From assembly GCA_040954595.2 (NCBI GenBank), contig CM082597.2:4407244-4471243 (forward strand): a stretch of 64,000 bases of DNA, in the 5' to 3' direction. Position 1 is the stretch's first letter; the number at the start of each line of letters is the position of its first letter. The translations under genes and the position numbers were made by a program. The DNA is from Balanoglossus misakiensis. Its lineage: Eukaryota > Animalia > Hemichordata. The notes under the pieces are model-generated. The model saw only the letters and a list, made by a program, of their open reading frames with translations, had not been told where the DNA came from and made no database searches. This document shows positions 6,671 to 58,013 of the stretch, piece after piece.

Positions 6671-9600
6671 ATGGCAAGCGTAGGCAAGGTGACTGAATTA
6701 GTTTGAGAATGTCATTTCTTGTGCGTCCTCCACAAATCCTTCAGGTTAAAGGGCGACGATCGTCTTATGCGCATGTGCCAAACCAGGGATGGTATACATG
6801 TACAGTAAATGCCATAAGGCAGTGTTCTCTCCCAACAATAGACAAGATGGCAGCGACCATATTCTCTGTCGGAGAACGGGGAAAGACAGCAAATTGGGTG
6901 AAAAGAAGAGACAAAACTAAATTCTACTTACGGTGCGCATGAGATACGGAAGGAAGCGAAGGCAGTCCGCTATTTAAAAAAGTCGAATGCAAAATTTCCA
7001 GAACGTTTGGATTGGACGTAATGATTTTACACACGAATGTATGCACATGCGCATGAGACGATCGTCGACCTATGATCTAAATGGACACAAGTACATGTAC
7101 GTGCGTGTAGTTTTTTTGCTACTGCAAATACATTCAATCCGACTTATTGCTTGCTCTACAATGTATTTGCACTGGCAAAGATTGGTGTACACGTATATGA
7201 AAACGGTTTAATAGTTATTCGTGTAAAATATGTAATAGAAAAACCTATTCGCATTTTTGGTAATCTGTTATAAGAGAACTGTCTGTTTCCATCGCAACGA
7301 GGTTTTTGTGACAGTTGCATAACTTAAAGCACGTTAGGAGGAGATAAGTAATACAACTAGAGTTGAATCATTCACTCAATCTGTGGGGCACACAATCTAC
7401 TTTCATTTGTGATACACCATCTGCTGTCAATCATACAATGCTTATTCGGGTTCTAATTTATCAGTAATATTACTCTGGCACGATCATATAGAGCGATCTC
7501 AAAGAGTAAAAGACCCTTCATAACCTTCCAACGTACTTATCCTTCAGGTGTCAGTTCTCATCATCAACGAGAACTGGGGTTTGGGTTATAGTGACGGGAT
7601 TCCCTCCGTCAATCGCTTAATTGCCAACATTCTTGGTCATATTGAAGTGGACCAGGTTTACTCGACGGTTCTGGAGTACAACGGGAAAGAGGAGGAGGAG
7701 GCGAGGAACGCACGCGTCAGCGTTCAGTCTCCACAACCGAAAGAGAGGAGATTCCGCGACCACATTTACCAGGAACCGAATCCAGACTGGCTTTACCTGC
7801 ACGACACCTTTTACCCGCAACTGAAAGAATTACAAGGTGACATCAAGTTCGTGTTCGGGTACTCCTTGACCACGGCAGAGGCAGCTGTGAAGATCAAACA
7901 AGATCTGTTCAGTGACGCAGCGCTATATTTAATCAACGTTTGGAATCCCGGTTCAATGAAAGCTGAAATTATCGGTTGGGATGACGAGGAGCTGGATCAG
8001 CGCAAGAAGGAAACAGCCAAATGGCTCCGAAACTCGCACGTGGTGTCGGTCGGAGAGAATGTCTATCAGCACTATTCGGCTAAACAACCCGGCTACGCCG
8101 AGGAAAGGCACTTTCTGCTTCAGCCTACCCAAGTCCCCGGGCAGGGTGTAACCAGAAAGTATGTGAGGCACAAACATGTCAATGAATTTAAACTTTTGAC
8201 GGTCTTTGAAAGTCAAAACATCCAGGACTACAAGGCCATCCGCAAGGACTACAAGGCCATCCGCAAGGCCATCCGCAAGGACTACAAGGCCATCCGCAAG
8301 GCCATCCGCAAGGACTACAAGGCCATCCGCGATGTCTTTTGCGACATGGTGAGCTACTTTAAAGGCACAAAGATTCGATGGGTGATGGTGGGAGACATCA
8401 GGGAAAAGGAGGATCACATCCGAAGAGTGCTCGACCTAGAAGACGAGTATCGCTTCGATCTCATACTAAAACCATGTTATTCTGTCGACGATCTCGATGA
8501 CTACCTGCTTGACTGCCACCTTGCACTCCCACGTCGTGATGCTCGAATCAGTGACCCGTTCGTGTGGCGTGCACTTTCGTTAGGCACGCCACTCGTGCTG
8601 CAGGTTCCATGCAACTCTGACTTCATCACCTTCATCGGGAACAAACTCGGAGACTATAAATCGGATCTGACGACCGCAGAGGACAACCCTGAGCAACTGG
8701 GCGAGAAGGTGAAGGATAAGATGGAAAATTACGACAATGCAGTTGATACAGCAGCAGCAATACGCACGATTATCAAAGAAATCTCAACTGAATCAAACGA
8801 TAAGCTTCGAGAAAAATTGATGGCACAGGTGAAACATGCTCCTAACGTCCCCTGGTCAACTCAAGGTAATTTTAAATGAGATCTGTGAGGGCATATATCT
8901 TTAATAACGTTTCATAAATGCTAGAGAGTAACATGCTAGAGTGTAGACATTTTAGCGTATTGATAGGGTCATCTGCAATTATCGAATAGTATGTAATCTC
9001 ATGTTTTATCAGTTACATTGATTCTCTTTAAAAATTATATCATGTTCTATTTTTGTGACTTTCAGAGGAAGGTTCTGAAGGATCTGATGTTAAAGATGAT
9101 AAAGCTGGTGCATTTCCATCGCGTAAGTTCTGGGTGTGACGAAAGTCTCAGGCAGACATAAAAGTGGAATTCCAATCCTGGGCCAATTTTATAACCCCTG
9201 AATGACCTTATCGTGTTTTGACGGTATGGCACTATACATAACTCGGCATTACATGCAACATTCACTCCTTTGTAACAGACACCATTCATTGTTTGGTTCT
9301 TGGATGAGTTGGTGTACAAATTCAATTGTATGGATGACTGTTCTAGAGTTTAAAACTCAAAATGGTTAACTCATACCAACACGGAATATTGTATTTGATG
9401 TTTATGACATCCCTTTAATCATATTCCCTTTTCACGTGATTTCCTCTTGTAGTTGAAAAAGGAGATGGTACAGAAATCAGTGGTGATGCCAAGTCTATGA
9501 GTCAAAGAAGCTTACCAGCTTTAGCAATAGGTATGTTACTTTGAAGCTTTCTTTCTCAACGCGACAGAAAATATCGTGAGATTATGCAACAAGATGAAAA

Positions 9601-11902
9601 TCAAGTGCCACCTAATCCAAAATGATTGCATCACTTGCTCAACGCATATAGTTCCTCCACACACCTTCTGGAAAGAGGTGGGATTCGTGTTTGGAGGGAC
9701 TATGCTCAATTTACTCCTTACTCCTATACAGCAGGATTCACGAACACTTGTGTAAATGGTGGATCAGATTTTTGTAAACAACTTTTACACGGCCAACCAA
9801 ATCTAAGACATTTTTGTGTTTCAATATGATCATCTGGTTTACATGAAGAATAAACTTTCGAACTGTATCTTATCTCATGGTTGAGAAGTATGTATTTAAA
9901 AAAAAACAATTATATCATGTTCTATTTCTGTGACTTTCAGAGCAAGGTCCTGAAGAATCTGATGTTACAGATGACAAAGCTGGTGCATTTTCATTGGGTG
10001 AGTAAACGTTGTTGGTGTGACGAAAGTCTCAGGCGGGTGTTGTACCGAAAGTCCAATCATGCAATGGGCAACTTTCATGACCCCTGAATGACCTTATAGC
10101 CTGGTGTCTTGTTGGTTTGACATCATACATTATTCATGATTACACCCAACATTTCATTCTTTGTTCTCGATGGAGTTAAAGTGTACAAATTCAATTGTAT
10201 AGTTGACTGTTCCACACTTTAATCTCAAAATGGTTAACTCATACCAACACGAGATATTGTGTTTAATGTGCATGTTATACCATTTTATGATAATTCCTTT
10301 ATTGTAATTTCCTCTTGTAATTGAAAAATGAATGGATATAGAAAGCAGCGTAGATGCCAAGTCCACGAGTCAAAGAAGCTCATTGGCTCTTGCAATAGGT
10401 ATGTTATTTCACATAGTCTCATGCAGGCGTTAAACTGGCATTCGATTCGTGTAATACGCAAACCTTTACTACTCAATATGGATCAATTTCGGGACAGTGG
10501 GCAAACAAGAGATGGCTCATCTACAGAATTGGGAAGAATTTACAAACACTTGTGTTTATGGTGGCTTATACCTGGAAATCTTCACTAACAGCTTTTAAAC
10601 GGCCAATCACATGCAAACCATTTTCGTATTTCAAGAGGATAGTCTGGTTTAAATGAAGAATATAATTCTCTAGCTGTATCCTATCTGGTTGAGCAGTAAA
10701 TTGAATTTTCTTTAAAAACAATTACATCACATTCTATTTTTGCGACTTTCAGAGGAAGGTTCTAAAGAATCTGACGTTACAGATGATAAAACTGGTGTAC
10801 TTTCTTCGGGTAAGTTTACAGGGATGACAAGTCTCAGGCGACGTAAAACTGAAATTCCAATCACGTATAATAGGCCACTTTCAAGACCCCTGACTGACCT
10901 TATATCAGGTGTTTTGTTAGTATGGCATCATACATCTTAATATTATATACAAAATTCACCGTTGTGTAACAGACAAAATTCAATATTTTGTTCTTGGATG
11001 AGTGAGTGTGTACACATTTATTCATTTGTGGGGTTGTTCAAGAGTTTAAAGTCAAAAGTGGTAAACTTGTACCAACAGAAAATATGACATTTACCTCTTA
11101 TGATATTACCTTTTATTATGACATTCCCTTTTCCTCTTGTAGTTGCTGAATGTTTGGATAAGGAAAGCAGTGTAGACTCGAAATCTGGGAGTCAACCAAG
11201 CACACTGGCTTTTGCAATAAGTATGTTAATTTAGATACATTTCTTGTCTAAGTCCCTGTCTGTCATCAACTAATGATGTCACACAATTTGGAAATGATAG
11301 AGGAGTATTTGATAATGTGCAATGTTATCAATCTGAAATGAAGTGATTGCATTTCGAATTTACGCTTGATTCTGCAATGTCGTGCCGAGAAACGTTTAGG
11401 ATGCATCACTGCCCGCAGATCAAATTGTTGTGATTGCTTTAGCTTGTAGAATTCTAACAAGACGCTGAAAATGAACACGCGCATCATGCAAAAGATGACT
11501 TTCGGTCGTTCAGTGAAACAACTTCAAGAATATTGAAACAGCAACTCCTAACCTTTCTCTGTTTTGTACCTTAGACGAAGGCGCCATGTCATCTGGACAG
11601 CGCAGACTTCAAGAAGAGAGGGGTCATCATGGCAGTTCAGGTATAATTAATTGTAGCGAGGACAACATTTCATGTGAGGTCTTTCATATGGTTGTGATTG
11701 CTAGTCTGTTTAAACCTGAGGCATGTTGGATGATTTTCTGAAATCTATGAGACAACATTTCAGATAAGAGAGAGTCAATCAATCAGTTCATTTGTTAGTT
11801 AGTTAGTTAGATTGTCTGTTCCTTCATCCATGTAATGTTCTTTCTTTCTTTCTTTCTCTTTCTTTCTTTCTTTCTTTTTCTCTCTCTCTCTCTCTCTCTT
11901 TC

Positions 11903-11978
<76 letters not shown>

Positions 11979-14816
11979 TGCCCTTTATGTAATTTTGCTA
12001 CAGATGATACCATTGATCTTCATATTACCTTGGGAGGTTGCATCCCAGAAGTAGGTCACACAGCGACAGAAGTGTCAGAAAGCTTATACAATATGGACCA
12101 ATCAAGCAAGGAAAACAACATGACTGTTAAAGAAATAGAGAAGCGTTACAGCCACACAAAGGTCAGTCCTCCAGAAAAGGGCTCCATAAAGTATAGCATA
12201 AAATGTGCTACACCTGACGCCTTGGCAAAACTGTGGAAATCCTACCAGAATGGCGAATTGCGTCACTTGGTTCAGCGGACCTTGGTGACTAAAAAGATGT
12301 TACAGAGAACACATGCGATGTCCATGACACTGAGAGTCAGCATTGACGACAGTGAATACAGAAAGTGTCTCCGAAAATTGAAAGGTAAGAAAATAAATAA
12401 ATTTAGCATAAAATCATATTTCAGTTATAGTAGGGAATTCACATGTGGCATGAAGTGCCCACTTTTTAAAAAAATGGTCTACGGGTGCATCCGATTAAGA
12501 AAATCTATTTTGCCTACGTACATGTCTTCTGTCTACTTGACTGTACACTGACATAGCAACCATGGAAAGGAAATACAATAACTAGTTTTCGAATCATGAG
12601 ATCAAATAATGTATCTAAAACAGTCTAGGAACAATGACACTTAAAGCTAAATGCTCTGACAGCAAACAACATAGCTTTGTTCGCATCATAACAGTAACTA
12701 TCAATTGGGTATATCAATTCTTGCTACCTTAAATATTTTTTTTCTACCTGGCTGAGAGTGAAAATCTCATATGGCCAACACAATATCAAGGGGGCATGTT
12801 AAGGAAGTTGAAGTTCATAAGCCAAAATGATGTTGGATCATTCTGTGACAACATGTGAAACAAGTTGAATATGCTAACTAAAAGACAGACATTTTTAACC
12901 AAAGAATGTTATGAAATACAGTTAACATTCATTTCTTCAAACTCTTACTAGTGAGTTGTTGACCCTTTTACCCTCAATACAATTATTATAATGGGATTTG
13001 ACCACCTAGCAAAAGTAAAACCTTCTTAAGGTGGCAAGAATTTTGTCCTGTCGTAGACCAAATGACAATGAAAGTAAGCATCTCTGTACTGGTACAATAC
13101 AGTGGTGGGTCTAATGCAGACTGGCTTGATATAAGTTCTGCAGGATATACGGTACATCCGTCAACATTATACCACTTGCATGTAAAAGTACCTTACTCAT
13201 CAGATATTTCCACTGTTGAAACATCAAGTTGAGATTGACCCACCATCCTTGTAGTTACATTAGCCCCAATATAATGATACTTGTTCAGATTATATACTTT
13301 TCAATGGAAAGTAGAACTTAAGGTATTATTTCTGACAGGTATGCCGAAGACTGATCTAACTGATTCAAGTGGTACAAGCACTGGTGACAGAGAAGAGATA
13401 ACAGGAGAACTTTCTGCTGAGCGGGAAGGCAAGAAAGAAAGAATTAGGGACGTCACAAGTGAAGTAGAAGTTCTTACCAAAGAGAAGAAAGATCTGTCCG
13501 AAAAATTGCGAGTACTGGAAGGCGAGAAAGAAAGTTACGGGGAGCAAATTTCGATCATCGAGACGAAAACAGAAACCATTAGCAAAGAGAAGGAATTGCT
13601 GTTAAGTAAGATTACTGACTTATCCGAGCAAGTGCGCACAATGAAGCCAAAGGTGGACTATATACACGGTAAGTCGGTTACAAATATAGGAAAAACCTAT
13701 CTGCCATATATCATAAATAAGACTAATTGTTATATATTAAAATCGTTGTACATGTTGAAATGCAATTAATGAATTTAGCAATCAAACAAGCACTCGACAG
13801 ATCAGTAGGTCAATATTAAAGCAGCACATCTCAGAAAACTGTGTAATAATACTGATAAAAACAATTCATCTTTTAGCTGTTTCAGTCTTCAAGCCATGTG
13901 TAGTAAGCGAAAATTGAATTGAAATCGTTGACATAACATAAACGTAGTGTACAAAACCTATTTATGTTGAATTCAGTATTTATTTTTTGTTTTTGCTCAA
14001 GACACCTTTGAAATGACTATTCTTGGCGGCCCAGGCAAGCATCCGGGACAGTTCAATCACCCAAGCGGGATAGCGGTCAATCAAGATGGAAACTTGGTCA
14101 TTGCTGATAAATCAAATCGCAGGGTCCAGGTTATAGGTTGGAACAACGTATTCAAACATGAATATGCACCCCAACCTAAGGACAAAGAGGTTTTCAGACC
14201 TAGGGATGTGGCCGTTTCTGTAAGAGGCACTTATTTTGTAACCGATCATGGGAAATGGCAAATCGTGGTCTGCAATGAAAAGAATGAGGTTGAGAATTCG
14301 TTTGGCGAGGACATAGACCCCTATGGCATAACTCTGACAAAGGATGACCATGTTCTTGTCAATGACCGTCACAAAGACAACATAAGAAAGTACACAAAAA
14401 AGGGAGAACTTGTTGCTATGTTTGGATCTAAAGGAAGTGGCCCACGCGAGTTCAATTTCCCATGGTCGGTTGTTGAAAACAGTAAGAAACAAATTCTTGT
14501 GTCTGATCAAAATAACCACAGAGTCCAAGTGCTTGAACCAGATGGAGCATTTGTGCTTTCCATGGGTTCGGAAGGCCATGGGGAAGGTGAATTGTACAAC
14601 CCATATGGGATCGATGTCGATGATAGCGACAATGTTTACGTGTGCGACAATGGCAACAGTAGAATTGTCAAATTTTCCCCGGAAGGTAAATTCGTCAGAT
14701 ACATCGGTGAAGGGAAGGTCAGTCCCAGGTATATTGTAGTTAATAAAGACAAAGGTCCTCTAAGAGTAGCGGTCACTGACTGGCAGGATAACTGCATCAA
14801 AGTGTTCATGGTGTGA
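6671..14816 (+). CDS. Multidomain protein: degenerate GT4-like glycosyltransferase + low-complexity linker + TRADD-N-like domain + coiled coil + NHL repeats (~1,080 aa)
   Basis: Exons: 6671-6688 (MASVGK, tentative start exon), 7548-8865, 9066-9122, 9453-9530, 9941-9997, 10753-10809, 11143-11220, 11575-11640, 12004-12384, 13339-13668, 14002-14816. All have canonical AG/GT ends and give one continuous frame to TGA at 14814-14816. AATAAA at 15534. Confidence 0.78.
6746..7075. mobile_element. MITE-like element with ~29-bp terminal inverted repeats (TTAA-AGG start, Kolobok-like)
   Basis: ttaaagggcgacgatcgtcttatgcgcatgtgc (6746-6778) pairs with gcacatgcgcatgagacgatcgtcgacct (7043-7071). Confidence 0.65.
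7548..8865 (+). CDS. Single 1.3-kb exon encoding a GT-B/GT4 (glycosyltransferase group 1)-like domain
   Basis: N-terminal VLIINENWGLGYSDGIPSVNRLIA, then EPNPDWLY, FVFGYSLTTAEAAVKIKQ, VVSVGENVYQHY and CHLALP...RALSLGTPLVL. These follow the motif order recalled for GT4-like domains of amphioxus and coral immune proteins. Acceptor ccttcag at 7541-7547, donor gtaat at 8866. Confidence 0.75.
8224..8330 (+). repeat. In-frame coding minisatellite (21-nt and 12-nt units; KDYKAIR/KAIR)
   Basis: Perfect aaggactacaaggccatccgc and aaggccatccgc units translate as DYKAIRKDYKAIRKAIRKDYKAIRKAIRKDYKAIR. Confidence 0.95.
9000..11230 (+). repeat. Three tandem copies of a ~810-875 bp unit, each with a 57-nt and a 78-nt micro-exon
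   Basis: 57-nt exons start at 9066, 9941 and 10753 (EEGSE.SDV.DDK.G). 78-nt exons start at 9453, 10321 and 11143. Intron sequences are also homologous between copies (e.g. gacgaaagtctcaggc, aaaatggttaactcataccaacac). Confidence 0.92.
10321..10398 (+). pseudogene. Pseudo-exon: inactivated second copy of the 78-nt linker exon
   Basis: The acceptor reads cctcttgtAA, where copies 1 and 3 have cctcttgtAG. The reading frame also contains TGA (tt gaa aaa TGA). Confidence 0.85.
11838..11979 (+). repeat. (TTTC)n/(TC)n polypyrimidine microsatellite
   Basis: Directly visible. It ends about 25 nt upstream of the acceptor at 12002-12003. Confidence 0.97.
12004..12384 (+). CDS. Exon encoding a TRADD-N-like domain
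   Basis: KGSIKYSIKCATPDALAKLWKSYQNGELRHLVQRTLVT...TLRVSIDDSEYRKC fits the recalled pattern GS....C.T..AL..LW..Y..G.L...L...LVT....L.V.I....Y..C seen in invertebrate death-domain and NLR proteins. Phase 1-1 exon. Confidence 0.65.
14002..14816 (+). CDS. Terminal exon: NHL-repeat six-bladed beta-propeller (TRIM2/3/71-like)
   Basis: Repeated NHL motifs: GQFNHPSGIAVNQDGNLVIADKSNRRVQV, FRPRDVAV, PYGITLT, EFNFPWSVVENSKKQILVSDQNNHRVQV, ELYNPYGIDVDDSDNVYVCDNGNSRIVKF. Confidence 0.93.
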
Positions 14817-16424
14817 GACAACGGCGCTTAACGACATGAGTGACGATTTGCATTTGTAGCATTTCATGGGGTTTATATCCAGACTGTACAGTTCAAAATT
14901 GTAGACAGATATTTTAAACAATGTGTGATTATTGAACTCTTGTAAGAAGTGACCGTCCAATACTGCATGAATTTGTTCGTCATGATATATTTGATAATGC
15001 TTAAGTGGGTATGTGTCCACACGTGTAAATACCGGTATATCCACTAGACTACACGGGAAGCGATGTACACAGTTTGATAGTTATTTTGGAAATGCTTGTG
15101 AGTTTTGCTGATGGATTTACCAGGTGCGCTATGAACGTAATGCATTGCCTGTCATGTAAATAATAACTGTTAGGCCATTTTGGCCCATGCTTGTAAACAT
15201 TGTGTTCTCTTGTATGGGAAATGCTGCATAGACTCAGTGCAGAAGTATTCTTGGATTTTGTTGAAAAGTCTATTCTGTGTTACCACTCTTGTATATGTTT
15301 TTTGTGCAAGACTTCTCATTGAGTACTGGTCTAACTTTCATTTATACTGTCATGTAAACGTCTTCTGACTGTTAAGAGTGTTTCAGTTGCTGTAAAATTT
15401 TGACTGTTATGGAGGAGACATGAGATTTATGACCCCTGAGAATGTAAATATTTCGAATTTGAAGATTGTTGAACTGCAGGCAAAAGAAGTGACAAAAGTG
15501 CCAACCTGGCAGTGAAATAAGAAAGTAATGTGAAATAAAAGGACATGCACATGCATGTGAATATGAAAGTATGGTATCATGTCATATATAAAGTATATCA
15601 ACATACATGTAATAACATTTGTGAGCAGAGTGAAAACAACAGAATGTTAATTGCAAACACATATGATAATACTGATGCTGATGAACTAACTCTTCTCAGA
15701 GCAATCTTCTTCTTGCTTCTGTGTAATTCACATTCTTTTAAGGTCATTCACCTGAGTTGATTATTACAAAAGTTTCATGTGGAAAAGTACTCGTGTGAGG
15801 GCGCTTGTGCATACATGTAGTTGCTGATATTGTCATGACTTAGGATCAAACGCTAAAAGTCCAATGATTTTGTCCACTGAGATTCTGTTACCATCTCCTT
15901 GTTAGACTCTGAAACCAGTTTGGTCAAAAGCGCGGTGTAATTCCCCAAAACGATCCATAGGCGTAGCAACGGGCAAAAAGGTATGGGTTCCCCATCTTCA
16001 GACTAAGTAAGGTTATCAATTGTGTGTATTCTTCGGAAGTTGTTCTCAATAGGATCCTTCGTGCGTTCAGTACAGTAAGGATATCAAACTCGGTTCTGTA
16101 TTTTCTCTCACTCCACATGCAAAGATTCGCCAATATGCAAATATACTTCAACTAAAATTTTACTATTCTGTGACTTACTGAGCAATCGTTACTTTATGAC
16201 ATCACTATTTGCAGCACCTATTAAAATGTTTTACAGAAATTGTTGATATATTAGTGTCATGTTTGCTCATATAAAAGATAAACGTCACCAGCTGCGGCCC
16301 ACGCCATTACTGCGTATAATGTCAGATGGCAGTGCGTTGCTCCATCATATATAAGTCATAACGCACACACATTTGATGGTCGTGCAGGAGGCACTGTTCA
16401 GATGGTATATTATCTCCCTACGCT

Positions 16425-22080: not shown

Positions 22081-23722
22081 CAATGTCAGCTGTTTGGATA
22101 ATCTTGTTTGATATGTATTGCCGTTTCTCAACAACTTTGTAAAGTTACAAACATGAGAAAAATAAAACAAAATTAAGGAAGTCCCAGACAAACTGTCTTG
22201 TTCCAGTCATTGAACGGGGATATCAAAACATCGAATCACGTGAAAGAATGATACACTAATTCTACATGTTAAAATTGCCACAAGTGTTGTCAACATCGAA
22301 CAAGCGATATACTTTGGGGAATATTAGTTAATCGCCATTGAAGTTTACAAAAGTAAAGTATTGAAGAGCTTTAATCTCTTACTATAGTGTCACATTAAAG
22401 TAGGGTATTATACAAATCTGCCTTAAGTGACGAACTAATAGTTTGATGCAAAATTCAACAAAGACCAAGTATGGAATAATGAATCGACATGACCAAGGAA
22501 GTCAGGAATGTTTCAGGTATAAGTGTTTACAAAACAGCTTTGCAGGCCATACAATCTGTTACAATCTCAAGGACCTGGTAAACCTGTTGACATAGTAAAA
22601 TGACTGCCCAAAGGAAATACAGAAATAAACGTTTGATCATGTATGATACATCCATGCACTCGTGGTACTTTCAAACAGTTATTTCATCCAACCCATTACC
22701 ACCCATAAAAGATAAAATACACAAACCACAATTATGCATGCTACTATCACAAAAACTGAAAAAAATGTCATATTACTTACAAGGTTGCTATGAAATTTTA
22801 TAAATGATTTTAAGTCAGGGCGCCACCACATGGTGAGATCAACTCTCTTATCACATAAATTTTAGAACATACGCTTATTTTAAGTCAGGGCGTCACCTAG
22901 TGGCAACGCCGACTCGATTTAAGCTCTTAATGGGCAGTCATTCTCCTGTAGAAAACATTCCAATAAGACTTGAACATAGAACAAATCTATGCCTGGTCTG
23001 TTACAATTGAAATTGAATAATTTAATGAGAATCTTGGAATACACTTCAAAGAGTGAACGTTAATTCACACGTGCGGTTTGAAAGTATTTTATCAATTCGG
23101 ACTTTCTCTGTAATTCTACCATATACCAGTATGTCATTAATTAAATCCACTATCCTGTAGATCAGAAATTTGGGTTATTGCCATAGATAAACCATTCTGA
23201 CAGTTTATAGAATCTCACACACCAAAACACATGGCATGATTTTGCATAACCCTCGTTCATTGTATTTATGGGAAAAGGGTCAGGCTAATTAATAACATGT
23301 GTCACTGGAGTGCCAGATTATTATTATACATGTACAGGTATGTTTGCTTTTATTTTATAATACTATTTGAATGAGCAGTTGTTGCCATTGATTTAACACA
23401 CTGCAATCAAGCTGTGATGCCATTTGTAACACTCAATGAATGCTTTATTGGTTTGTAAAAGTAAACTTTTCCTAAACTGTAATTTATCACCTTGCTCCAA
23501 TAATGTTTGAACGTATACTTTGCCTATGGATGTAATAAGATGCATCACATTTACCATGGGAACCCAGTAATGACACAGTTTCAATGTGTGTTCGTGTGTT
23601 GGCATGTCATTTCTTGGGGTGGGCGTGTCAGCTTAAAAGCTAATACCTATGATTTGTATCTTGGTGAAAAAGTCTCTCACCTAGTCGGAATCACTTCAAA
23701 GCAGCTCCCACTGTATAAAACG

Positions 23723-26700
23723 ATGCGCACAATTTCTCGTATTGGCCTTTGCATTTTGCTGGGTTCTGGATATCTGCTGTGGTCATGGCTTGGAAGAATG
23801 GGTCCCAAGTCCCCGACCAAACCGAATATTGTGTTTATTCTTGCTGACGATCTTGGTAAGGAGTATTTCTGTCACGTTTTGCTTACATGTATTACTACTT
23901 TCTGTAAAGCAATTCTGGTGCGCTAGAATCTGTTTAAAGGGACAAAGTCTCTCTCTCGCTGCCCATTTTTCCATTGATTATGTTTGATACAAGACACCAT
24001 TTATGTTATTCTACATGTGGATATCTAGTGAATCAATGTTTGACCACACACAACTTCCATCCCACTTGTAGATATGAGAGTGAAAAACTCACCAACATTA
24101 ATAATCGATCGCTACCGTTTATTCATTTTGGTGAGATTTTTATTCATCCAACCTTTTTAGTATTTTAGAGTAAACAATTGTGCTGATTCGCTTTGATTAT
24201 TACCCATCAAAGATCTTAATTGTTTAAGACCAAGATATAATTACCCAGTGTCAGTATCGACCTACATCTACTTCATTCGATGCATGCACGTATACCACAC
24301 TGTATACATAAATCTTGAAAAATTATGCAAATATCGGTAATCCAATTGACCAATCAGCAGAAGCCGTTACCTTGTGCTTAACAGTCACAGCTGTACCATT
24401 TAGAGAAGTTCAAACGTGGAGCCTCTGGTATGTCTGGAATTAACATACACAATCGTGAGCTGTCTGGTAAAACTGAGATAGTCTTTTTAATATCACACTA
24501 AATTCTTTCAGTAAGAAGTCAACAGCTTTTGAGTAGCAGCTGGCAGAAACATCACACTCTAGTTATTAGGTGCTGAAGTTGTAAACGAATCTCTGTGCTT
24601 TACTACCAATTTGTGATTAAATGCATGGTCGTAAAGGAATGTTTACGACCTCTCTGTATTGCCTTTCAATCATCACTAACACTTGTTTATAATACCAGAT
24701 AACTTGAAACATTGGAGTCTGCAGAATGAAGAAACTGTTAATGGTGTGATGAATTTATGTAATTTCTTGCTCTTTCTTTGACAAGTTACATCTGGATGCA
24801 AAATTGTACTTCATCATAAGCTAGTAAAATCATGGCTATGAAATAAACTGCACTTTTTAATTCTAGGCTGGAGTGATATTGGTTACAATAATCCCTATGT
24901 TATAAGTCCTACCTTAGATACACTGGCCAGAGAGGGCGTCATACTAAATCAATCATATGCCTCACAGTCCTGCAGTCCGTAAGTAATAGCATGCATCGTT
25001 TATGAACATTTCGGTGTACATTGCATAACAATGGCTATGTAACATGACCAATGAAGGGCCATCTCTGAGTTGCTTATTTATAACATTTGCGCAAACGTCT
25101 ATTGCTTGAATTCCATCTTATTTTCTTATCCTATCCTATCTTTGATTTAGATCAAGGTCAGCTTTAATGAGTGGATACTATTCTTATCGACTTGGGTTCC
25201 AGGTACATATATATAGAACAATTATGAAACTTGACATTTATTTGAAAAAAAATAATTGTATTGTTTTGCATGGTAAGATATTTGGTGGGGGGAGGTAACA
25301 TTCTTATAAAAATTTCTTTCTGTTAATCAGTCTGTTATTTACATACTAGGCAGGGGGAGTGCGATGCAAGATGCCTCGTGGATTACAACTTAATCTTACA
25401 CTACTGCCAAGAAAACTTCAACAACTAGGTTACACAACATATATGGTTGGAAAGTGAGTACATATCGCGTTAAATTCCCCCAAAACTCATAGTAGCATAG
25501 TTTGGATGTGCCTGGATACATAGTCAAATGTATTGAAGAAATTGAAGGTAAATATGCCATCTGGTTGAATGTTAAATATGTTAAATGGGCTAATATGTAT
25601 GAAAAACTCATAATAACGTTGCATTAACTTTCATTAAATAGATGGCATTTGGGATTTTGCAAAAAGGAGTACACACCAACCATGCGCGGTTTTGATAAGT
25701 TCTATGGTTACTATTTGGCCGGGGGAGATCACTTTACACATAGGTCACATCCAACCATTAGTAAGTAAGCACATTTTTATCTACTAGAAAAAGACCATTA
25801 AATTATAAATTTTCAAAATCTTGAGGAAAGTATCATAAATGCAAGCACTCTTTCTAAGTACCTCTCCACTATTGATTCCAAAGCAGATGGTGGACTTGAT
25901 CTTCACGACCAGTTTGAGACAGACTGGAATCAAAATGGGACGTATTCATCGGTAAGTAATAAACTATGACATTAAAAACCATATGTTGGCGGAATGTTTT
26001 GTGGAAAATTCTGTCTAAAGAAATATCCGAAACATGGACAGACTATACGTGAAATCTCCAGAGCTATTCCTGTCTGACACCGATCCATAGGCACCCTTAC
26101 AAATGGAAGTAGCAAGTTTATTTTCATAGTCCAACTAATAAATAACCTGTTCTGCTGGAAACACTATAGACAAATTGATCAGGCATGCTGGTAATAGTGC
26201 ATTACGAACTGTTACATTACAGTACTTGTACTCAGACAAAGCTGTGGATTTTATTGAAAATCATGACACATCCAAACCGTTATTCATGTACCTGGCCTAT
26301 CAAAGCATTCATTCTCCTCTGCAGGTAGGTGATTTACACAAATCATCATTTCATCATCAGTTTGTTTTGAGCGTTTACCGGTACATACTGGTATAAACAC
26401 AGATGTAACCATGTTATTGCAATACATCCCAACATTCTAATAAGATGCATGTAAGAACTGAACTATAATGTCTATTGTATGCAATTCATAGGTACCAAAA
26501 AAGTATTTTGATATGTATCCAAAGGTCAAGAACTTGAATCGAAGAATTTTACTAGGTAAGAATGCATTTTGATTCCCAAACACCACAATAAAAGGTACCA
26601 TAATCACAGAAGTGTGACAGAAGGGAACTGTATGCTTGTGTTTGTATATAAGGCTTACACTAATAGCTTCAAATTTCTATGACTATTCTAATCCTTTATG

Positions 26701-28712
26701 AAATCAACCACACAGTCTCCAACGTTATGGTAAAACATGATGTTCACAAGGTCTTTATGCACAATTCACAAGGCATTTAACTCCATTGAATGTAAATGCT
26801 GTTTTGACAACTGTCCGGTATACAGTGCTAAGCATTGAAGAATGAACACATAAAGGGCATTGGATAAAGGCCATGCACTACCTTAATTATAATTTTTTGA
26901 GGGTGTTAAAATCAAGTGTTTCTTATTTCTCTTGAAGGGATGATTACGGCCATGGATGAGGGTATTGCGAAGGTTGTAGAGGCTTTACGACAGAATGATC
27001 TGTGGAGAAATACTATATTGGTATTTATGTCTGATGTAAGTTCCCTGATATTTTGTTTTTGATGCTCCTAACACAACCAATAGTAAAATTGATGAGTTTG
27101 AGGACTTAAATTAAAACCAGAGGATTTTAAACGTGTCATGAAACATCTAAACAGTTTTTGACAACTTTCTCCTCCTCACCACCATCACCATCTTCACCAT
27201 CATCACAAGCCTATAAAGGCTTTCTTCCCATTGTTGCCATGGTTCCAGCTGATGCTACCATGGCAATCATGTTAAATCACCATACAACAACAAACCCTTG
27301 AATTTCTTGGCAGAATGGCGCACCACAGAATGAAAAATTCGAGGGTAACAACTGGCCCCTTCTGGGGACGAAACAGACGCTATATGAAGGCGGAACTCGT
27401 GTTGTTGGCTTCATTCACAGCAATAGACTTCAAAAAAAGAAATATACATACAATGGGTTTGCATATTATTTTTATATGTTTTGAAGGAATCCTAAACATA
27501 AGCTGACAAATCTATGTGTACATTCCTACAGATGTTTCAATTTTAACAGTACCACTGGGGCGTTCAATTTGGAAACAATGAAAACCAACACCACATGTAA
27601 TACATTAACATCATTATTAACACTTCCTCAGGACATAATGCAACATTTGTCTGTTGTTTCCCTTTCATGGTCAAGAATGATGCATATTGTCGATTGGTAT
27701 CCAACACTTGTGAAGGCTGCAGGTGGTAAAATATCAGGTATTAATCTTTTTGTCAAAGCCTCTATAATTTATACGTACTGGTACATGCATACATAAATAC
27801 ATACGCATATACACCCATCCACTCGTATTATATATTTGTTATCTTTCAAGATCGAGAAATGGATGGTGTAGACATGTGGAGAGCATTATCAACAAATGCA
27901 GCATCGCCAAGAAAAGAATTGGTATATAATATAATTGATGATTGGAATTTGGCGTCAATAAGGTAAACTCTGTTCTTATACTTACTGAAATTGAGGTGGG
28001 GGGGGGGAGAAGGAGGATGAAGAGACAATGAGACAGAATGACCATTTGACTGTCATGGATTTTTACAAAATGATCAGTCTGTTGGTTAGTTGCTTGATTG
28101 GTTTGTTTATTTCATTTTTGTTAGGTATGGTGATTTCAAATTAATGCAGGGTCCCAGCCCTCATCCAAATGATTGTAAGTAAACAAAATAAACTTTAAAT
28201 TTTGAGGAATACGAATCCAATAGCTCAAAACTGCATTATTTAAAGAGAGCGACCACATGGTTTTTGGACAATCCAAACACCCTTTTGCCTATACCGGTAT
28301 ATGGAAATATGTCAATTAAATGTGACTGCACACTTTTTTATTTTCAGTATGTTGGGTTCCACCACCTGAAACCGATGGAAAACTTGGTGAAAAAATCTGT
28401 ATGGACCCACATTCAGGAGATGTGCAACTGTTCAATCTAAAAGGTAGTTACAATCAAGTGTTATGCTATTTACCTATTATACCTAGAACCTTTATTCTGT
28501 ACATATTAACAATATCTGATTTTCACCTTTTCGCAGTTGACCCGTTGGAACAATTCAATCTTGCTGATGAAATGCCAGAAAAGGTGGCGGAATTAATGGC
28601 AAGACTAAAAGAACGTAGGAAGCAAGCTGTGCCAGCCTTCGAAAGATCTGAAGTATCGGAGGAGGCTGACCCGGAAAATTTTGGGGGTGTGTGGTCACCT
28701 GGTTGGTGCTAA
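23723..28712 (+). CDS. Arylsulfatase B-like sulfatase, copy 2 (15 exons)
   Basis: MRTISRIGLC...[13 protein letters not shown]; SCSPSRSALMSG; GKWHLG; SIHSP; MSDNG; NWPLLGTKQTLYEGGTR; WSPGWC-TAA. Same intron positions as copy 1. AATAAA 28949. Confidence 0.93.
23934..24150. mobile_element. Truncated copy of the foldback MITE (family A), sulfatase 2 intron 1
   Basis: ttaaagggacaaagtctctctctcgctgccc... matches the left arm of 40813-41167. Confidence 0.85.
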
Positions 28713-29130
28713 AAGACAAAGTTTTCCTGCATATATTTCTTTCTGGGCGAGGTTATGTCTAGTGTCACTCTGCGAGTTTAAATATTTAAAGATAAACTGA
28801 AATCAAATGATAAAAGCTCATGAACACATAGTTTTGAAAATTGTTTACCACAGGAGATGCAGGATATATTGTTTAGATATTATGTTATGTCATTTCTATA
28901 AATGTTTTCATCATGTCTGTTATTGTTGTTCAAATCATAGAAAACTTGAATAAAAATAGTGTACGAGTACATGTGATCATCATTCATTTCATCCTATATA
29001 AGCTGCATTAAAGCATATGGTAGCCACAGTGCCAATGACACTACTATTGCGAGCATGCGCATTATCTCTATCCACTTTGCACGCACAACTTTTTTTCAGT
29101 GCTAACTTAAACCTCAGTGTGCACTGCACG

Positions 29131-32100
29131 ATGCGTGTTGCTCTCCAAGTAGCCATATGTAGCTTTCTAGCATCTGGATACCTCTTATGGCTGTTTGCCG
29201 GGAAATCAGAAGTCGCTTACACGGAGAAGCCTAGCATTGCAAAATCAGAGATCACTATGCCGGAAAAGCCACACATTGTCTATATTCTCGCTGATGATCT
29301 TGGTAAGTGTATGGCTTTACAATTATATGATCATTTTCTCTGCAAAATACATCATTGACAGTGACCCATTTAGTATACCACATTTGTGAAAGAATCATCT
29401 TGAGAATCACCTGGTAATAGCTTAGATTTCACTGGTCTCATTTCATTGTGAAAAACTGCAATTCTAACTATCTTTTACTGACAAACAAGGTCTAACAAAA
29501 ATGTCAGTGTAGTAATTTAGAATTCAATTGATTGATATAATATATGTTTCAATCATGAAATAGTCCCAATTGTGCTATAATTATTTGTGTACGACATGTA
29601 TGTCAGAAATATTTTGGTGAGTGTTTTTCAGCCAAAGACATCATAAACACGCGTAAAAAGTTGCCTTTCTCAAGAGTAACAGCTCAGGAGCGTGTTTTAT
29701 AAAATACCATGAGTAACAACATGAAGATGTCAGCCTATTTATATCCTGTCTGTAGTACAGAGCCTTTGCATGCAGCTAGCAATCTTGATCAATATTGACA
29801 AGTCTACTGCAAGTCAAATGCATGTTATGTACAATCACGTTCATTCATAAATATGTGTCTACTGTAGAAAGCATTCTATACACACAAAAGAAAATGATTC
29901 AAAGCCAAGTCACATAGACCATCAGCCATTTGATAAATGTCACGGATGATACACAGAGTCCAATGTAAAAATGATATTAATTCAGTATCTATTGAATTCC
30001 GATATACCAGCTGTTGTGTTGCAGTATTTAATCAGATAACGAGGAGGAAATATCATATAAAATTGTTTGCCTATATTGTTTAGCTTTTGTAATCCACTTA
30101 CACTGTTAAGTCCTCTGCCCACCATTTTTGTTTGCTATACTGGTATAGTAGTCTGAATACTACATGTATAAAACACCATGATTATTTTGTGTCCCAATGT
30201 TGATATCTGTAGGTATTCACCTATTTTCACATTGAGAATTTGTCATATTACTTCATGTTTCATTTGGAAGAACTGGTTTTGGATAACGTGTTTGCAAAAG
30301 TTTAGTCACCCGATCATTCGCAAACATTTTGTATTGTTTACTTTGCACGAATCTTTCAATATTCAATGCAACTAAAGTTAAAAAATCTATAAGTGTCGGC
30401 TCGTATTAAAAATATGATACAGGCATGTACCGATTTCAACGTCATATGGTGAATTCTGTCATGGTCCTGTGAAATAGCACACAATGACACGTGTTTATCA
30501 TAAGCACCAATAGGATTTAAAGTTCAGCCATTCTGTGATGATTAAATCACTGTGTTTGCCTTCCACGGGGTGTCACGGTGTTTATTGAGTCAGGTAAATG
30601 TATGCCGCGAACGCTCGGTTCCTTTGATAAGTTATAAATGTAGACACGATGCAAGGCCAAAGGAATGCATTGTCACATAGCCGTTTGCGAGTTTGTCTGC
30701 CGGTGAATTAGGACACCCTCACCGGTTTGGGCCTATTGATACGCCTATTGTATGCTTTACAAGTTTTACAAGCTGTCACTAGACCTGTCCAAGCATTCCC
30801 ACAGTATGTTTAAACTAACAACCTCTCGTTTCCAAAGGAAAAACATGCATCTATATCTTGAATTACAGTTACTGTATGCTAAACAATTGTTTTCCTTTAG
30901 GATGGAGTGATGTTGGTTACAACAATCCGTATATCATTAGTCCCACTATAGATGCACTCGCAAGAGAAGGGGTGATCCTTAACCAGTCCTATGTGTTCCA
31001 GTCATGCTCCCCGTAAGTAATTAAATACACAGTGTTAAAGAGTTAATCTTCATAAGATGATGACCAAATGGCTTTGAATGAGAACAACTTAGTTACACTA
31101 AACAAAGACCCCTTGTTTCTCAACAAGGTCTTTAACAATTAGTAGATTCAAACAGCAAACGAATCTCAATTTCAGATCTAGAGCCTCTTTGATGAGTGGA
31201 TATTACTCCTATCGCCTTGGAGTGCAGGTACGTATCCATCTTATTTTCAACTCACATGAAAAATAGATGTAATTCATTGCAGCATTGCATTTAATAAATA
31301 ACTCAGAGCAATGCACTTTGGCGACTGACTGCCAAGCAATCAAGCCTGAATGGAAATCTTTCAAAATTTTTATTTCCAACATAACCATGTGACAGACAGA
31401 AATCTATGAAAGCATGTCTCGTGATGATACTCTCGTATATGTTTACTTCTATTTCCTGAGATAAGACAATCCGAACCAATTGATGTTACCCAACAATGCC
31501 TCTGGAATCGCTTCTACCAGTTGACAATCAGTGAGGTCATCCACGTGTTGACTGAATAATGAACATCTGTATAAATTTGATTTCAGACAGGGGGTATGTG
31601 GCAAAGGCTACCACAAGGAGTTCCATTGAATTTTACACTGTTGCCAAGGAAACTGAAACAACTCGGATATTCAACTTATATGGTTGGAAAGTAAGAATGA
31701 ATGAATGAATGAATCAATGAATGAACTTGGGAAAGAGAGAACTAAAGAGCGAACACAATAGTATTAACAAATCACTGATTTGTCCATTTATATTTTGAAG
31801 GATGGGTCATTGGGTAGGTGGTTGTAGGGTAGGTTGGTTGACTAATTGCTCAATCCATATCTGTAGCATATGTAAATTTGAGGTGACTGTATACCTTTAA
31901 TTAGCCAGTAGCCAGTCAACATAAATGCAGAACTGCTATTCACAGCTTGTTTGATTGCAGCATTGTGTACTCATTGAGATGTATACTCACTCTCCTAATT
32001 ACCACAACTGTAACACATAATTTGTTTTGGTTTATCATTAAATCAACAGATGGCATTTGGGATTTTGCAAAAAGGAATACACACCAAACGGACGAGGCTT

Positions 32101-38745: not shown

Positions 38746-39711
38746 TGACGAACAGATGGCACTACGCCGTTTCTAAAATTAGCGCGATAGATTACAGGAT
38801 TTAGAATTATTATTCAGCTGAACAATAGCATACTATAATAGAAAGAGTGATTACAATAAACCGATTATAACCCCTACACAATGTGTTTGGAATGACGTTT
38901 GAATAACAGTTGAAGTTCCTGCGAGAAAAAAAAACACAATTTCCTTCTATCACTATCGCTCCCTAATCAATCACCATTTTATGTGTAATGGAAAAAAATA
39001 CCCAACTACCAATGTCATTACTAACAAGAAGGCTACATACTCACACGTCACAATCTTATTAGATGCTGCCTCATTAAGTCGAAATCTAAGTGACAAGTTG
39101 TCAGAAATTGGACTGCATCATCGTTATCTCTTATATATATATATTGTTGACGTCACGTAAACAGAAATACACCTTGCAGAAAGGGAAGTGCGAAACCACT
39201 GTTTACTTTGCATGGCGTTCCTTAATTAGATCAATTACGTGTCTTAACACCTTGTCATACAGGATACATAGAGAATTACCAATACATTTGATAACTGAGA
39301 TGGAAGATAATAAAATTCGTATTTTTTCTGTATGTGAGCAGAATGTTGTTGATGAAAAAAAACTGAAACAACTAAATATTAATTAGTGAGATTTTCGAAT
39401 AAATGCAACGTGGCAAATCTTTGCCAGACAAACAAATATGAGCTTGATCACATGACACACCTGTCGCCGTTGCTGCTGAAAATACTTTTAATATGATCAC
39501 GGTTACGTGAAACATTTGTCGGCGTTGTTTTAGACTGAAAATAATTTAAAAGCGTCCGGTTAATATCAGTACTTTTAATCAATCACTGCGTTAAGTTTTC
39601 CGCTTATAGGCGCAAATCTATCACAAAAGTCGACTTACAGCGCGAGTGTCTTCTCCACAAACAGTATCAATAGTTTCTCTGCTCTGGGTATGACCAGCTC
39701 CTCTATACACC

Positions 39712-41804
39712 ATGGATGCGGTTAAACACTTAGTTATGTGCTATTTATCCGTCTCCATATTTTTCCTGTCGCCATCGCTGGGAAAATCTCAGAAGAAACA
39801 GCCACACATCGTGTTTATTCTCGCCGATGATCTAGGTAAGAGTTTTCAACAATTATGTTCAACATCCCCCGCCCAACATACCAATAATCCTAGTCTTTGT
39901 TTTACTGTTTTATTTTGTTATCACATTGTTTATGTCTCAAACAATGCTACAGTCACGGTGATGTGTATATTAAACGGACAAAGTCTCTCTCTCGCTGCCC
40001 CTTTTCCATTAATTATGTTTGATACAAGACACCGTTTATGTTATTCTACATGTGTATATGTAGTGAATCAACGTTCGACCACACACAACTTCCACCCCGC
40101 TTGTAGACACGAGAGTGAAAAACTCGCCAAAATGAATAATCGGTCTTTACCGTTTATTTATTCATTCAGACTAAAACTTCTTTTTTGCTTGTATCATTAA
40201 TAAAGGATGGAGTGACGTGGGTTTCCACAACCCCTACGTTAAGACCCCCCACATAGATGCACTTGCCAGAGAGGGCGTCATCCTCAATCAATCATATGTG
40301 TCACAGTCATGTGGTCCGTGAGTAACCATGACAATACTTGTGATGTGCCAAGCCCGGATGCACACATACGCAACAATCTCGTGGTAGTAAAACTTTTCAC
40401 TGTCACCAACCGGTTACAATAAAAGTACCATTCACAAATGTGTTTGTCCTATGTGACATGAGAATGCTCTCCCTTATAAACTGTCTATAGCTACGCGAGA
40501 TCTCGTAGGTTCTCGCGGATTTTTGAAAAGGGCCTATCAGATTCCAACATTTTACAATGTTTTCATTTCAGATCTAGAGCAGCACTGATGTCTGGATACT
40601 ATTCTTATCGCCTGGGGTTTCAGGTGATTATCTTTTTGTAGTGACGTCATGCCACACAGCCCCTGTCTAATGATACAATCCATTTATCTGCTACAGCTTG
40701 CACAGACAGGGGATCTAGAACTAAAACAATCACCGGGCATTAACCACCCTTCATCTGACAATGTGACCATCTGTTTGGGGATTACGATAGATTGCGCCTC
40801 GAAAATCAAATCTTAAAGGGACAAAGTTTCTCTCTCGCTGCCCTTTTTCCATTAATTATATTTGATAAGAGACAACGTTTGTTATTCTACATGTGGATAT
40901 ATAGTGAATGAACATTCAACCACACACAACTTCCACCCGTCTTATAGACAGGAGAGTGAAAAAAACTCGCCAAAATGAATAATCGTTCTTTACCATTTAT
41001 TCATTTTGGGCGAGTTTTAACTCTCATATCATACAAGTGGGAAGGAAGTTTTGTGTGGTTGAACGTTGATTCACTATATATCCACATGTACATTAACATA
41101 AACAGTGTCTTGTATCAAACATAATTAATGGGAAAAGGTCAGCGAGAGAGAGACTTTGTCCCTTTAAAGATTCTCTCATATTTTGCTCAAGGAAGACTTT
41201 AGGAAAATGTCTCTTTAAATTGAGATTAAACATTAGTGCACCTCTCAAAATTTTGAATAAAAGAAAACTTGTCTCAATTTTTCTCAAATTCGATAATCAA
41301 AATGGCGCCGATCTCTGTGTCTTATCTATGAAAATTTGAAAAACAACAAGGTGAACACCCAGTTATCTTATTTGCTTTCAATAATTGGAAGGATTATCGT
41401 TTTTTTCTAAAAAATCTGTCCCCATCACGCGTTTTACCTGAAGACTTGAAGGAGTGGTTTTGCCCACTAGTTGAAGTAGGTAAGCGTTGAGCTAAGATCC
41501 GCCCAGGGTGAAGTCGTGCTACTAAGCCATTGCACTAGAAAGTAAGTAGTCGTTCTGAGTTTGGGGGCGCTCTGTACAGAAATTTGACACATGCAGGCAA
41601 TGTTGTAAGCCGTCCCAGTTGTGACATCTGACTACTGTCGTATTTGTTATATCATCCCAGGCAGGAGGGGCGCACCGGGAAATGCCTGTCGGATTATCGT
41701 TAGATCACACTCTGCTGCCTGCAAAACTACAGCATCTTGGTTACACAACATATATGGTTGGAAAGTAAGTAAAACAGTGTATGCGGTGTATGCCGTGCAA
41801 AGTG

Positions 41805-51056: not shown

Positions 51057-58013
<6,957 letters not shown>

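What the first reader, a model, noticed from the sequence alone, without database searches (positions are those of the whole stretch)
6671..14816. Unusual immune-type architecture: pseudo-glycosyltransferase + TRADD-N-like + coiled coil + NHL propeller
Seen: exons splice into one ~1,080-aa frame with four separable domains and no signal peptide, RING/B-box or NACHT domain. Known: GT group-1 domains are fused to NLRs in the coral Acropora, TRADD-N-like domains act as adaptors in invertebrate death-domain and STAND proteins, and coiled coil + NHL forms the dimerisation and ligand/RNA-binding half of TRIM-NHL proteins. Inference: this is a TRIM-NHL-like chassis whose RING/B-box is replaced by NLR-type effector and adaptor modules, i.e. 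a candidate cytosolic sensor of a lineage-specific immune system. I do not know of a characterised protein with this combination.
Basis: partly seen in the sequence, partly recalled or inferred. Interest (0 to 1): 0.82.

Follow-up and report, generated by a model that had tools for sequence, protein, structure and literature searches.

The report
Dead sugar-transferase sensor with NHL tail
A gene whose closest relatives are in acorn worms is predicted to join a sugar-transferase domain that has lost its active-site residues to a switch domain, a coiled coil and a propeller that likely binds RNA or another polyanion; it belongs to an already described, expanded family of likely intracellular immune sensors, in which the dead enzyme and the swappable propeller are the new details.

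Summary
Observation confirmed from DNA: eleven AG/GT exons give 1,084 codons without a stop: GT4-conflict (Pfam PF20706), acidic mini-exon linker, TRADD-like_N (PF20694), coiled coil, six-bladed NHL. No RNA run was listed, so splicing is unshown. It is not unique: 20 of 119 GT-exon relatives share GT+TRADD-N+NHL (all 18 named are Ptychodera or Glandiceps), and Kaur 2021 describes GT4-TRADD-N proteins and lists GT4+TRADD-N+beta-propeller in amphioxus. 'Pseudo' holds: both EX7E glutamates, both histidines and the Gly-Arg pair are absent in all 44 rows of one GT clade, which holds every TRADD-N-followed GT found; that paper treats GT4 as an active effector. The NHL top face is basic-aromatic, conserved within this gene's subgroup, hypervariable between paralogues, and NHL and GT trees disagree (tail swapping). 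So this is a GT4-TRADD-N chassis with a sensor tail rather than a TRIM-NHL that lost its RING; no NLR module. Best reading: a non-catalytic, likely dimeric cytosolic sensor that signals in trans. The scan noted the same dead chassis with other tails elsewhere in this genome. New variant of a known kind.

The parts
6671..6688 (+). Predicted first coding exon (6 codons, phase-0 donor)
   Evidence: one of 7 candidates; N-termini of relatives match in length
7548..8865 (+). Exon 2: whole GT4-conflict (GT-B) domain, catalytic residues absent
   Evidence: Pfam PF20706; AF2 pLDDT 90 and Foldseek to WaaG, HepE, BshA, PglA; motif loss
8231..8330 (+). Perfect 33-bp x3 tandem repeat adding about 29 in-frame residues in the vestigial donor-binding helix; absent from the relatives shown
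9066..11640 (+). Acidic, Ser/Gly-rich linker built from phase-1 mini-exons: 9066-9122, 9453-9530, 9941-9997, 10753-10809, 11143-11220, 11575-11640; a two-exon unit triplicated with its introns (69-74% DNA identity)
10321..10398 (+). Dead copy of the 78-nt mini-exon (acceptor reads AA, in-frame stop)
12004..12384 (+). Exon 9: TRADD-N-like domain; the Gly-Ser turn is present
   Evidence: Pfam PF20694; AF2 pLDDT 95.5, Foldseek 1f3v TRADD-N rank 2, E 0.008, highest query TM 0.60
13339..13668 (+). Exon 10: coiled coil
14002..14816 (+). Exon 11: six-bladed NHL propeller and stop codon
   Evidence: Pfam NHL; best solved relatives Thin, TRIM71, TRIM2/3; six blade motifs
15534..15539 (+). First AATAAA after the stop, candidate polyadenylation signal
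   Evidence: consensus match only

Best explanation
The gene is predicted to encode a soluble, likely dimeric intracellular sensor of the GT4-TRADD-N family in which the GT4 domain lacks its catalytic residues, the NHL propeller likely binds the ligand (probably RNA or another polyanion), and the TRADD-N domain would pass the signal to partner proteins. Shown: the frame, four domains, loss of the GT active-site residues across a whole clade, a basic-aromatic NHL top face that is fixed within this subgroup and different between paralogues, and NHL/GT tree conflict. Inferred: dimerisation through the coiled coil, ligand binding on the top face, switching by TRADD-N (model of Kaur 2021), and output in trans, because the protein has no enzyme or death domain of its own; the dead GT fold would serve as scaffold or decoy.
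For: Domains. Family: 20 of 119 GT-exon relatives have GT+TRADD-N+NHL, two more found from the NHL side; the 18 named of the 20 are Ptychodera flava (13) or Glandiceps talaboti (5). Dead GT: both EX7E glutamates missing in 21 of 21 GT-TRADD-N-NHL domains including the window's; against 27 intact rows, Gly21, His111, His137, Gly226, Arg227, Glu339 and Glu347 equivalents are kept in 0 of 44 rows of the clade (SH-aLRT 100) while fold residues are kept; the intact motif aligns with that of BshA, and EX7E mutants lose activity in a GT4 enzyme (PMC12856342 passages). NHL top face: 5 Lys/Arg, 3 His, 5 aromatic and 1 acidic among 24 positions; 12-20 of 24 identical in 7 close relatives against 1-4 of 13-24 in 14 distant paralogues; 0.67 against 0.46 for other variable positions, permutation p 0.016. 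A positive top face is the RNA site in Brat (PMC4015489 passages). Tail swapping: NHLs of dead-GT proteins are rejected as one clade (AU p 0.003). One dead-clade relative carries a DED (P0036), and intact GT4 relatives are fused to NACHT-LRR, CARD, Death, DED, Roc-COR.
Against: No expression, induction, binding or knock-out data. The immune role rests on domain context and on one computational paper. This gene's own NHL is conserved (52-61% to five relatives), which fits a fixed host ligand as well as a microbial one. Only 1 of 6 pre-proline positions is Arg, against 4 of 6 in the TRIM71 chain aligned, so TRIM71-type RNA recognition is not met. The top-face positions were picked by motif, not from a model, and the close relatives are related, so p 0.016 is generous. 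The structural TRADD-N match is weak: E 0.008 and Z 6.0, tied with unrelated ferredoxin-like folds.
Confidence: 0.55

Rival explanations
1. A domesticated, non-immune RNA regulator: this conserved subgroup would bind host mRNAs through the NHL like Brat or NHL-2, with the dead GT and TRADD-N as a scaffold.
For: NHL is the best conserved part (52-61% against 32-36% for GT), short branches for this subgroup in the NHL tree, conserved basic-aromatic face, one copy in this window, best solved relatives are TRIM-NHL proteins.
Against: The subgroup itself has at least 8 Ptychodera paralogues, some lacking the tail or the GT in their models; the wider family diversifies exactly on the ligand face.
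Confidence: 0.2
2. The dead GT4 is itself the sensor or an integrated decoy: it would bind a glycan, a nucleotide sugar or a pathogen inhibitor aimed at the active GT4 paralogues, and the NHL would be the output or localisation module.
For: The GT-B fold is kept with high confidence across a 44-row clade with long branches; active GT4-conflict paralogues exist in the same taxa.
Against: The donor-binding residues are all gone and no new invariant polar residue replaces them in the pocket; in this copy a repeat is inserted into the donor-binding helix.
Confidence: 0.12
3. One reading: a TRIM-NHL gene whose RING/B-box half was replaced by NLR-type effector and adaptor modules.
For: Coiled coil plus NHL is the TRIM-NHL tail; solved TRIM-NHL propellers are the best PDB sequence matches; TRADD-N+propeller proteins in corals are named trim71/brat by annotators. 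The NHL exon may ultimately derive from a TRIM-NHL gene.
Against: GT+TRADD-N is the constant part and tails vary; no filamin domain, no NACHT; nearest NHLs are family members and the 4 sampled TRIM/filamin-NHL rows group apart (small sample, not shown to be acorn-worm TRIMs).
Confidence: 0.08
4. The gene model is wrong or the copy is decaying: GT-TRADD-N and NHL exons belong to separate or truncated transcripts.
For: No RNA support here; 13 of 119 relatives are GT+TRADD-N without NHL in their models; a dead mini-exon and a perfect repeat insertion are present.
Against: 1,084 open codons, uniform phase-1 introns, and 22 relatives annotated as single proteins with the same order.
Confidence: 0.05

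Closest known systems
Metazoan GT4-GTase + TRADD-N (DEDD2 clade) proteins of cnidarians, cephalochordates and hemichordates (Kaur et al. 2021, PMC8195603), e.g. [quoted passage not shown]
   Same: GT4 before TRADD-N, variable repeat tail, lineage-specific expansion, TRADD-N between two globular domains.
   Different: The paper treats GT4 as a likely active effector and names LRRs as the usual tail; the word NHL did not occur in its main text or in source files 4 and 6. Here the GT lacks the catalytic residues and the tail is coiled coil + NHL. The propeller type and motif state of the amphioxus protein were not checked.
Uncharacterised Ptychodera flava and Glandiceps talaboti RefSeq proteins (P0003, P0005, P0006, P0135, P0167; P0007 = XP_078000408.1)
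   Same: Same domain order, same shortened dead motif, NHL 52-61% identical, colinear.
   Different: Linker and coiled coil only 5-21% identical; no repeat insertion in the GT; annotated only as uncharacterised or myosin-like.
TRIM-NHL proteins (Brat, TRIM71/LIN-41, Thin/Abba, TRIM2/3)
   Same: Coiled coil followed by a six-bladed NHL propeller with a basic-aromatic top face.
   Different: No RING, B-box or filamin domain; top-face residues differ from TRIM71.
GT4-NACHT-LRR proteins of corals and amphioxus (coral case recalled, not read; P0085 seen)
   Same: GT4-conflict domain at the N-terminus of an immune-type protein.
   Different: Those found here keep EX7E and carry a STAND NTPase; the window protein has neither.

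Membership tests
GT4-TRADD-N proteins (Kaur 2021) | GT4-conflict domain | tested here: met
   PF20706 47.2 bits, cut-off 26; GT-B fold, GT4 enzymes on top
GT4-TRADD-N proteins (Kaur 2021) | TRADD-N domain after the GT4, between globular domains | tested here: met
   PF20694 26.7 bits, cut-off 23.7; 1f3v rank 2; structure alone is weak
GT4-TRADD-N proteins (Kaur 2021) | TRADD-N of the DEDD2 clade | not tested
   No TRADD-N tree with reference clades was built; the paper assigns GT4-linked ones to that clade
GT4-TRADD-N proteins (Kaur 2021) | Lineage-specific expansion with variable tails | tested here: met
   (in Ptychodera and Glandiceps; the window's own genome is not held)
Active GT4 retaining glycosyltransferases | EX7E motif | tested here: not met
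   Arg at both positions in the window; 0 of 44 in the clade
Active GT4 retaining glycosyltransferases | Gly loop, conserved His, Arg/Lys phosphate-binding pair | tested here: not met
   Gly21, His111, His137, Arg227 equivalents 0 of 44; Lys232 equivalent 8 of 44, Gln in the window; roles from a GT4 model in bioRxiv 2026.03.06.709245 passages and recall
Active GT4 retaining glycosyltransferases | Sugar transfer activity | not testable with these tools
   needs an assay
TRIM-NHL | RING and B-box | tested here: not met
   no pattern in the model; no Pfam hit in the four large exons
TRIM-NHL | Coiled coil plus six-bladed NHL | tested here: met
TRIM-NHL | RNA-binding electropositive top face | tested here: inconclusive
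   basic-aromatic by residue count but not the TRIM71 pattern; no model of the propeller was made
NLR / STAND | NACHT or NB-ARC NTPase | tested here: not met
   no Walker A, no Pfam hit

The most novel reading that the evidence does not exclude
Acorn worms run a modular intracellular receptor network on a pseudo-glycosyltransferase-TRADD-N chassis: phase-1 tail exons are swapped to give sensor versions (NHL propellers with diversified ligand faces, this one fixed on a conserved ligand such as RNA) that pair through the chassis with death-domain-tailed executor versions, a sensor/helper scheme like plant paired NLRs but with no NTPase.
Probability: 0.2. Interest if true: 0.78.

Novelty: new variant of a known kind. 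Interest (0 to 1): 0.42.

Why it matters
It corrects how a described family probably works: in the acorn-worm clade the GT4 next to TRADD-N cannot be the glycosylating effector that was proposed, so a whole expanded clade of pseudo-enzymes must act by binding. NHL propellers are known mainly as RNA readers in development; their ligand face being diversified across paralogues points to use as an immune receptor repertoire in a deuterostome without adaptive immunity. The architecture itself is not a surprise.

Tried and rejected
No whole genome is held, so paralogues in this genome could not be counted. No RNA holder was listed. A near-length search with the GT exon found nothing; the longer-length search and the profile-free scan did. 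A predicted complex of the GT and TRADD-N domains gave no verdict (scores 0.38, 0.00, 0.00; alignments not used). The wide structural search did not single out TRADD-N. P0053 matched only the repeat insert and was dropped from the GT alignment. Pfam found no TRADD-N among the rows shown for 32 further relatives with one or both glutamates (only the best 5 families were shown for 9 of them), and my TRADD-N profile was seeded from this clade, so divergent TRADD-N domains on active GTs may be missed. Paper searches with no hit: TRADD-N+glycosyltransferase+NHL, GT4-conflict, hemichordate+NHL+glycosyltransferase+immune; the phrase 'inactive glycosyltransferase' did not occur in the 8 papers listed; one search listed nothing relevant. 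No second copy of these exons lies elsewhere in the window.

Full report
Gene model. The region holds one plus-strand gene of eleven predicted coding exons with AG/GT borders; all nine introns after exon 2 are phase 1 and the joined frame is 1,084 codons with no stop. Each domain sits on its own exon: GT4-conflict on exon 2, TRADD-like_N on exon 9, a coiled coil on exon 10 and NHL on exon 11. Between GT and TRADD-N lies a 131-residue acidic linker (29 Asp/Glu, 13 Lys/Arg) built from mini-exons that arose by triplication of a two-exon unit with its introns (69-74% DNA identity); one copy is dead. There is no hydrophobic segment, RING pattern or Walker A motif. No RNA run was listed and no genome is held, so the splicing is supported only by the sequence and by relatives: five align colinearly to exons 2, 9 and 11. 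In relatives, 5 of 6 isoform pairs compared differ only by a block inside the GT-TRADD-N linker, which suggests alternative use of such mini-exons.

Folds. The GT exon models at pLDDT 90 as a two-lobed GT-B fold whose best solved matches are GT4 enzymes WaaG, HepE, BshA and PglA. Exon 9 models at pLDDT 95.5; TRADD-N (1f3v) is rank 2 with the highest query TM-score (0.60) but E 0.008, and in the wide search it is tied at Z 6.0 with other ferredoxin-like folds. The assignment therefore rests mainly on Pfam. The NHL exon's best solved relatives are Thin, TRIM71 and TRIM2/3.

Family. A scan of 1.84 billion representatives with the GT exon gave 117 hits, and a longer-length search 3, 119 distinct proteins in all. 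With my own profiles, 20 of the 119 have GT+TRADD-N+NHL, 13 GT+TRADD-N only and 11 GT+NHL without a detected TRADD-N (which also counted 3 isoforms); two of the 20 have only partial propellers. Two more came from the NHL search. Of the 20, the 18 that I looked up or that came named are Ptychodera flava (13) or Glandiceps talaboti (5), so the window is likely from an acorn worm. Kaur et al. 2021 (PMC8195603; I saw the abstract, passages, part 7 of 17 of the text, and term searches in source files 4 and 6, of which file 4 is cut and only the first 30 of 1,690 GT4 places were shown) describe GT4 preceding TRADD-N in cnidarians, cephalochordates and hemichordates and list GT4+TRADD-N+beta-propeller (1,071 aa, amphioxus), TRADD-N+coiled coil+beta-propeller (6 rows), and GT4+TRADD-N with TPR, ankyrin, DED, LRR or Bcl-2 tails. 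They do not use the word NHL in the text or those two files, and they propose GT4 as an active effector; I saw no passage on inactive GT4 among the 12 of 25 shown.

The GT is a pseudo-enzyme by sequence. In an alignment of 107 near-complete GT domains from 105 of 118 relatives plus the window's, both EX7E glutamates are missing in all 34 domains that are followed by TRADD-N (21 with NHL, 13 without), whereas 31 of 62 domains from proteins with neither module keep both. In a tree of the 108 rows (quick search, motif columns included, midpoint root) a 44-row branch with SH-aLRT 100 holds all 34 plus 10 others that also lack the motif; the window groups with one Glandiceps and six Ptychodera rows. 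Against 27 rows chosen for an intact motif (3 more from another branch left out), the equivalents of the N-terminal Gly, two His, the Gly-Arg pair and both Glu are kept in 0 of 44, while fold residues are retained. The intact motif aligns with that of BshA; its importance is stated in passages of PMC12856342 and bioRxiv 2026.03.06.709245. This is probably one ancestral loss, not 44 events. In the window's copy a perfect 33-bp repeat adds about 29 residues in the former donor-binding helix; it may be an allele or an assembly artefact. Intact GT4 relatives are fused to NACHT-LRR, CARD, Death, DED, Roc-COR, TPR, ankyrin or IIGP domains. Whether the amphioxus and coral GT4+TRADD-N proteins are also dead was not tested.

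The tail behaves like a swappable receptor. The nearest NHL domains (53-62%) are all from this family; RING/B-box/filamin-NHL hits were about 31%. At 24 top-face positions picked by motif (top face as defined in PMC4015489 passages) the window has 5 Lys/Arg, 3 His, 5 aromatics and 1 acidic residue; 12-20 are identical in 7 close relatives but only 1-4 in 14 distant paralogues, whose whole domains are 24-40% identical. Among positions variable across paralogues, top-face ones are better kept in the close group than the rest (0.67 against 0.46, p 0.016, relatedness not corrected). In an NHL tree of 35 rows (two partial propellers left out) propellers of dead-GT proteins mix with those of proteins whose GT keeps one glutamate, and holding either set together is rejected (AU p 0.003 and 0.007). 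With uniform phase-1 introns this fits exchange of tail exons between chassis. The face does not reproduce the TRIM71 arginine pattern, so RNA is the likeliest ligand class but is unshown.

Mechanism. Best reading (0.55): a soluble, likely dimeric sensor in which the NHL top face binds the ligand, TRADD-N acts as the switch proposed by Kaur et al., and the dead GT is a scaffold or decoy; since no enzyme or death domain is present, output would be in trans. One dead-clade relative carries a DED and a second TRADD-N (P0036). Rivals are a domesticated mRNA regulator (0.2), GT as the sensing or decoy module (0.12), a remodelled TRIM-NHL (0.08) and a wrong or decaying model (0.05). All functional steps are inferred.

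Earlier scan notes. Two unreviewed reports on other pieces of this genome describe the same dead GT4/TRADD-N/coiled-coil front half with IFIT-like or ZU5-UPA-DED tails. I had found the motif loss before reading them; their tails I could not check, and they suggested the sensor/executor idea in the novel case.

Verdict. Real gene, correct domain calls, known family. New relative to what I could find in print (searches; subscription papers are not covered): the clade-wide loss of catalysis and the NHL tail with paralogue-specific ligand faces. New variant of a known kind; interest 0.42.

Noticed in passing
window 17345-40200, + strand: Several exons with an 'H/N-I-V-F/Y-I-L-A-D-D-L-G' sulfatase-type start (23504-23926, 29002-29358, 39694-40200) and a sulfatase-like end (28326-28712) suggest a tandem arylsulfatase cluster; the label is recalled from the motif, Pfam gave no hit on these single frames.
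   Followed up: partly
window 57325-57660, - strand: Exon of a TMEM145 N-terminal domain gene (PF21892, 78 bits).
   Followed up: partly
window 8231-8330: Perfect in-frame 33-bp x3 repeat in the dead donor-binding helix of the GT; not in the relatives shown; allele or assembly artefact unknown.
   Followed up: partly
P0008 (Ptychodera flava XP_070573493.1): One protein carries a dead GT4 before TRADD-N and a second GT4 that keeps one glutamate at its C-terminus, i.e. a GT as the swapped tail.
   Followed up: no
P0011, P0033, P0048, P0055, P0056, P0063, P0064, P0072, P0075, P0079, P0103: A second GT4+NHL group without detected TRADD-N whose motif reads mostly E/D-x6-E instead of E-x7-E; possibly active with altered donor binding.
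   Followed up: no
window 11838-11979: TTCT microsatellite (36 copies) directly before the TRADD-N exon acceptor.
   Followed up: no
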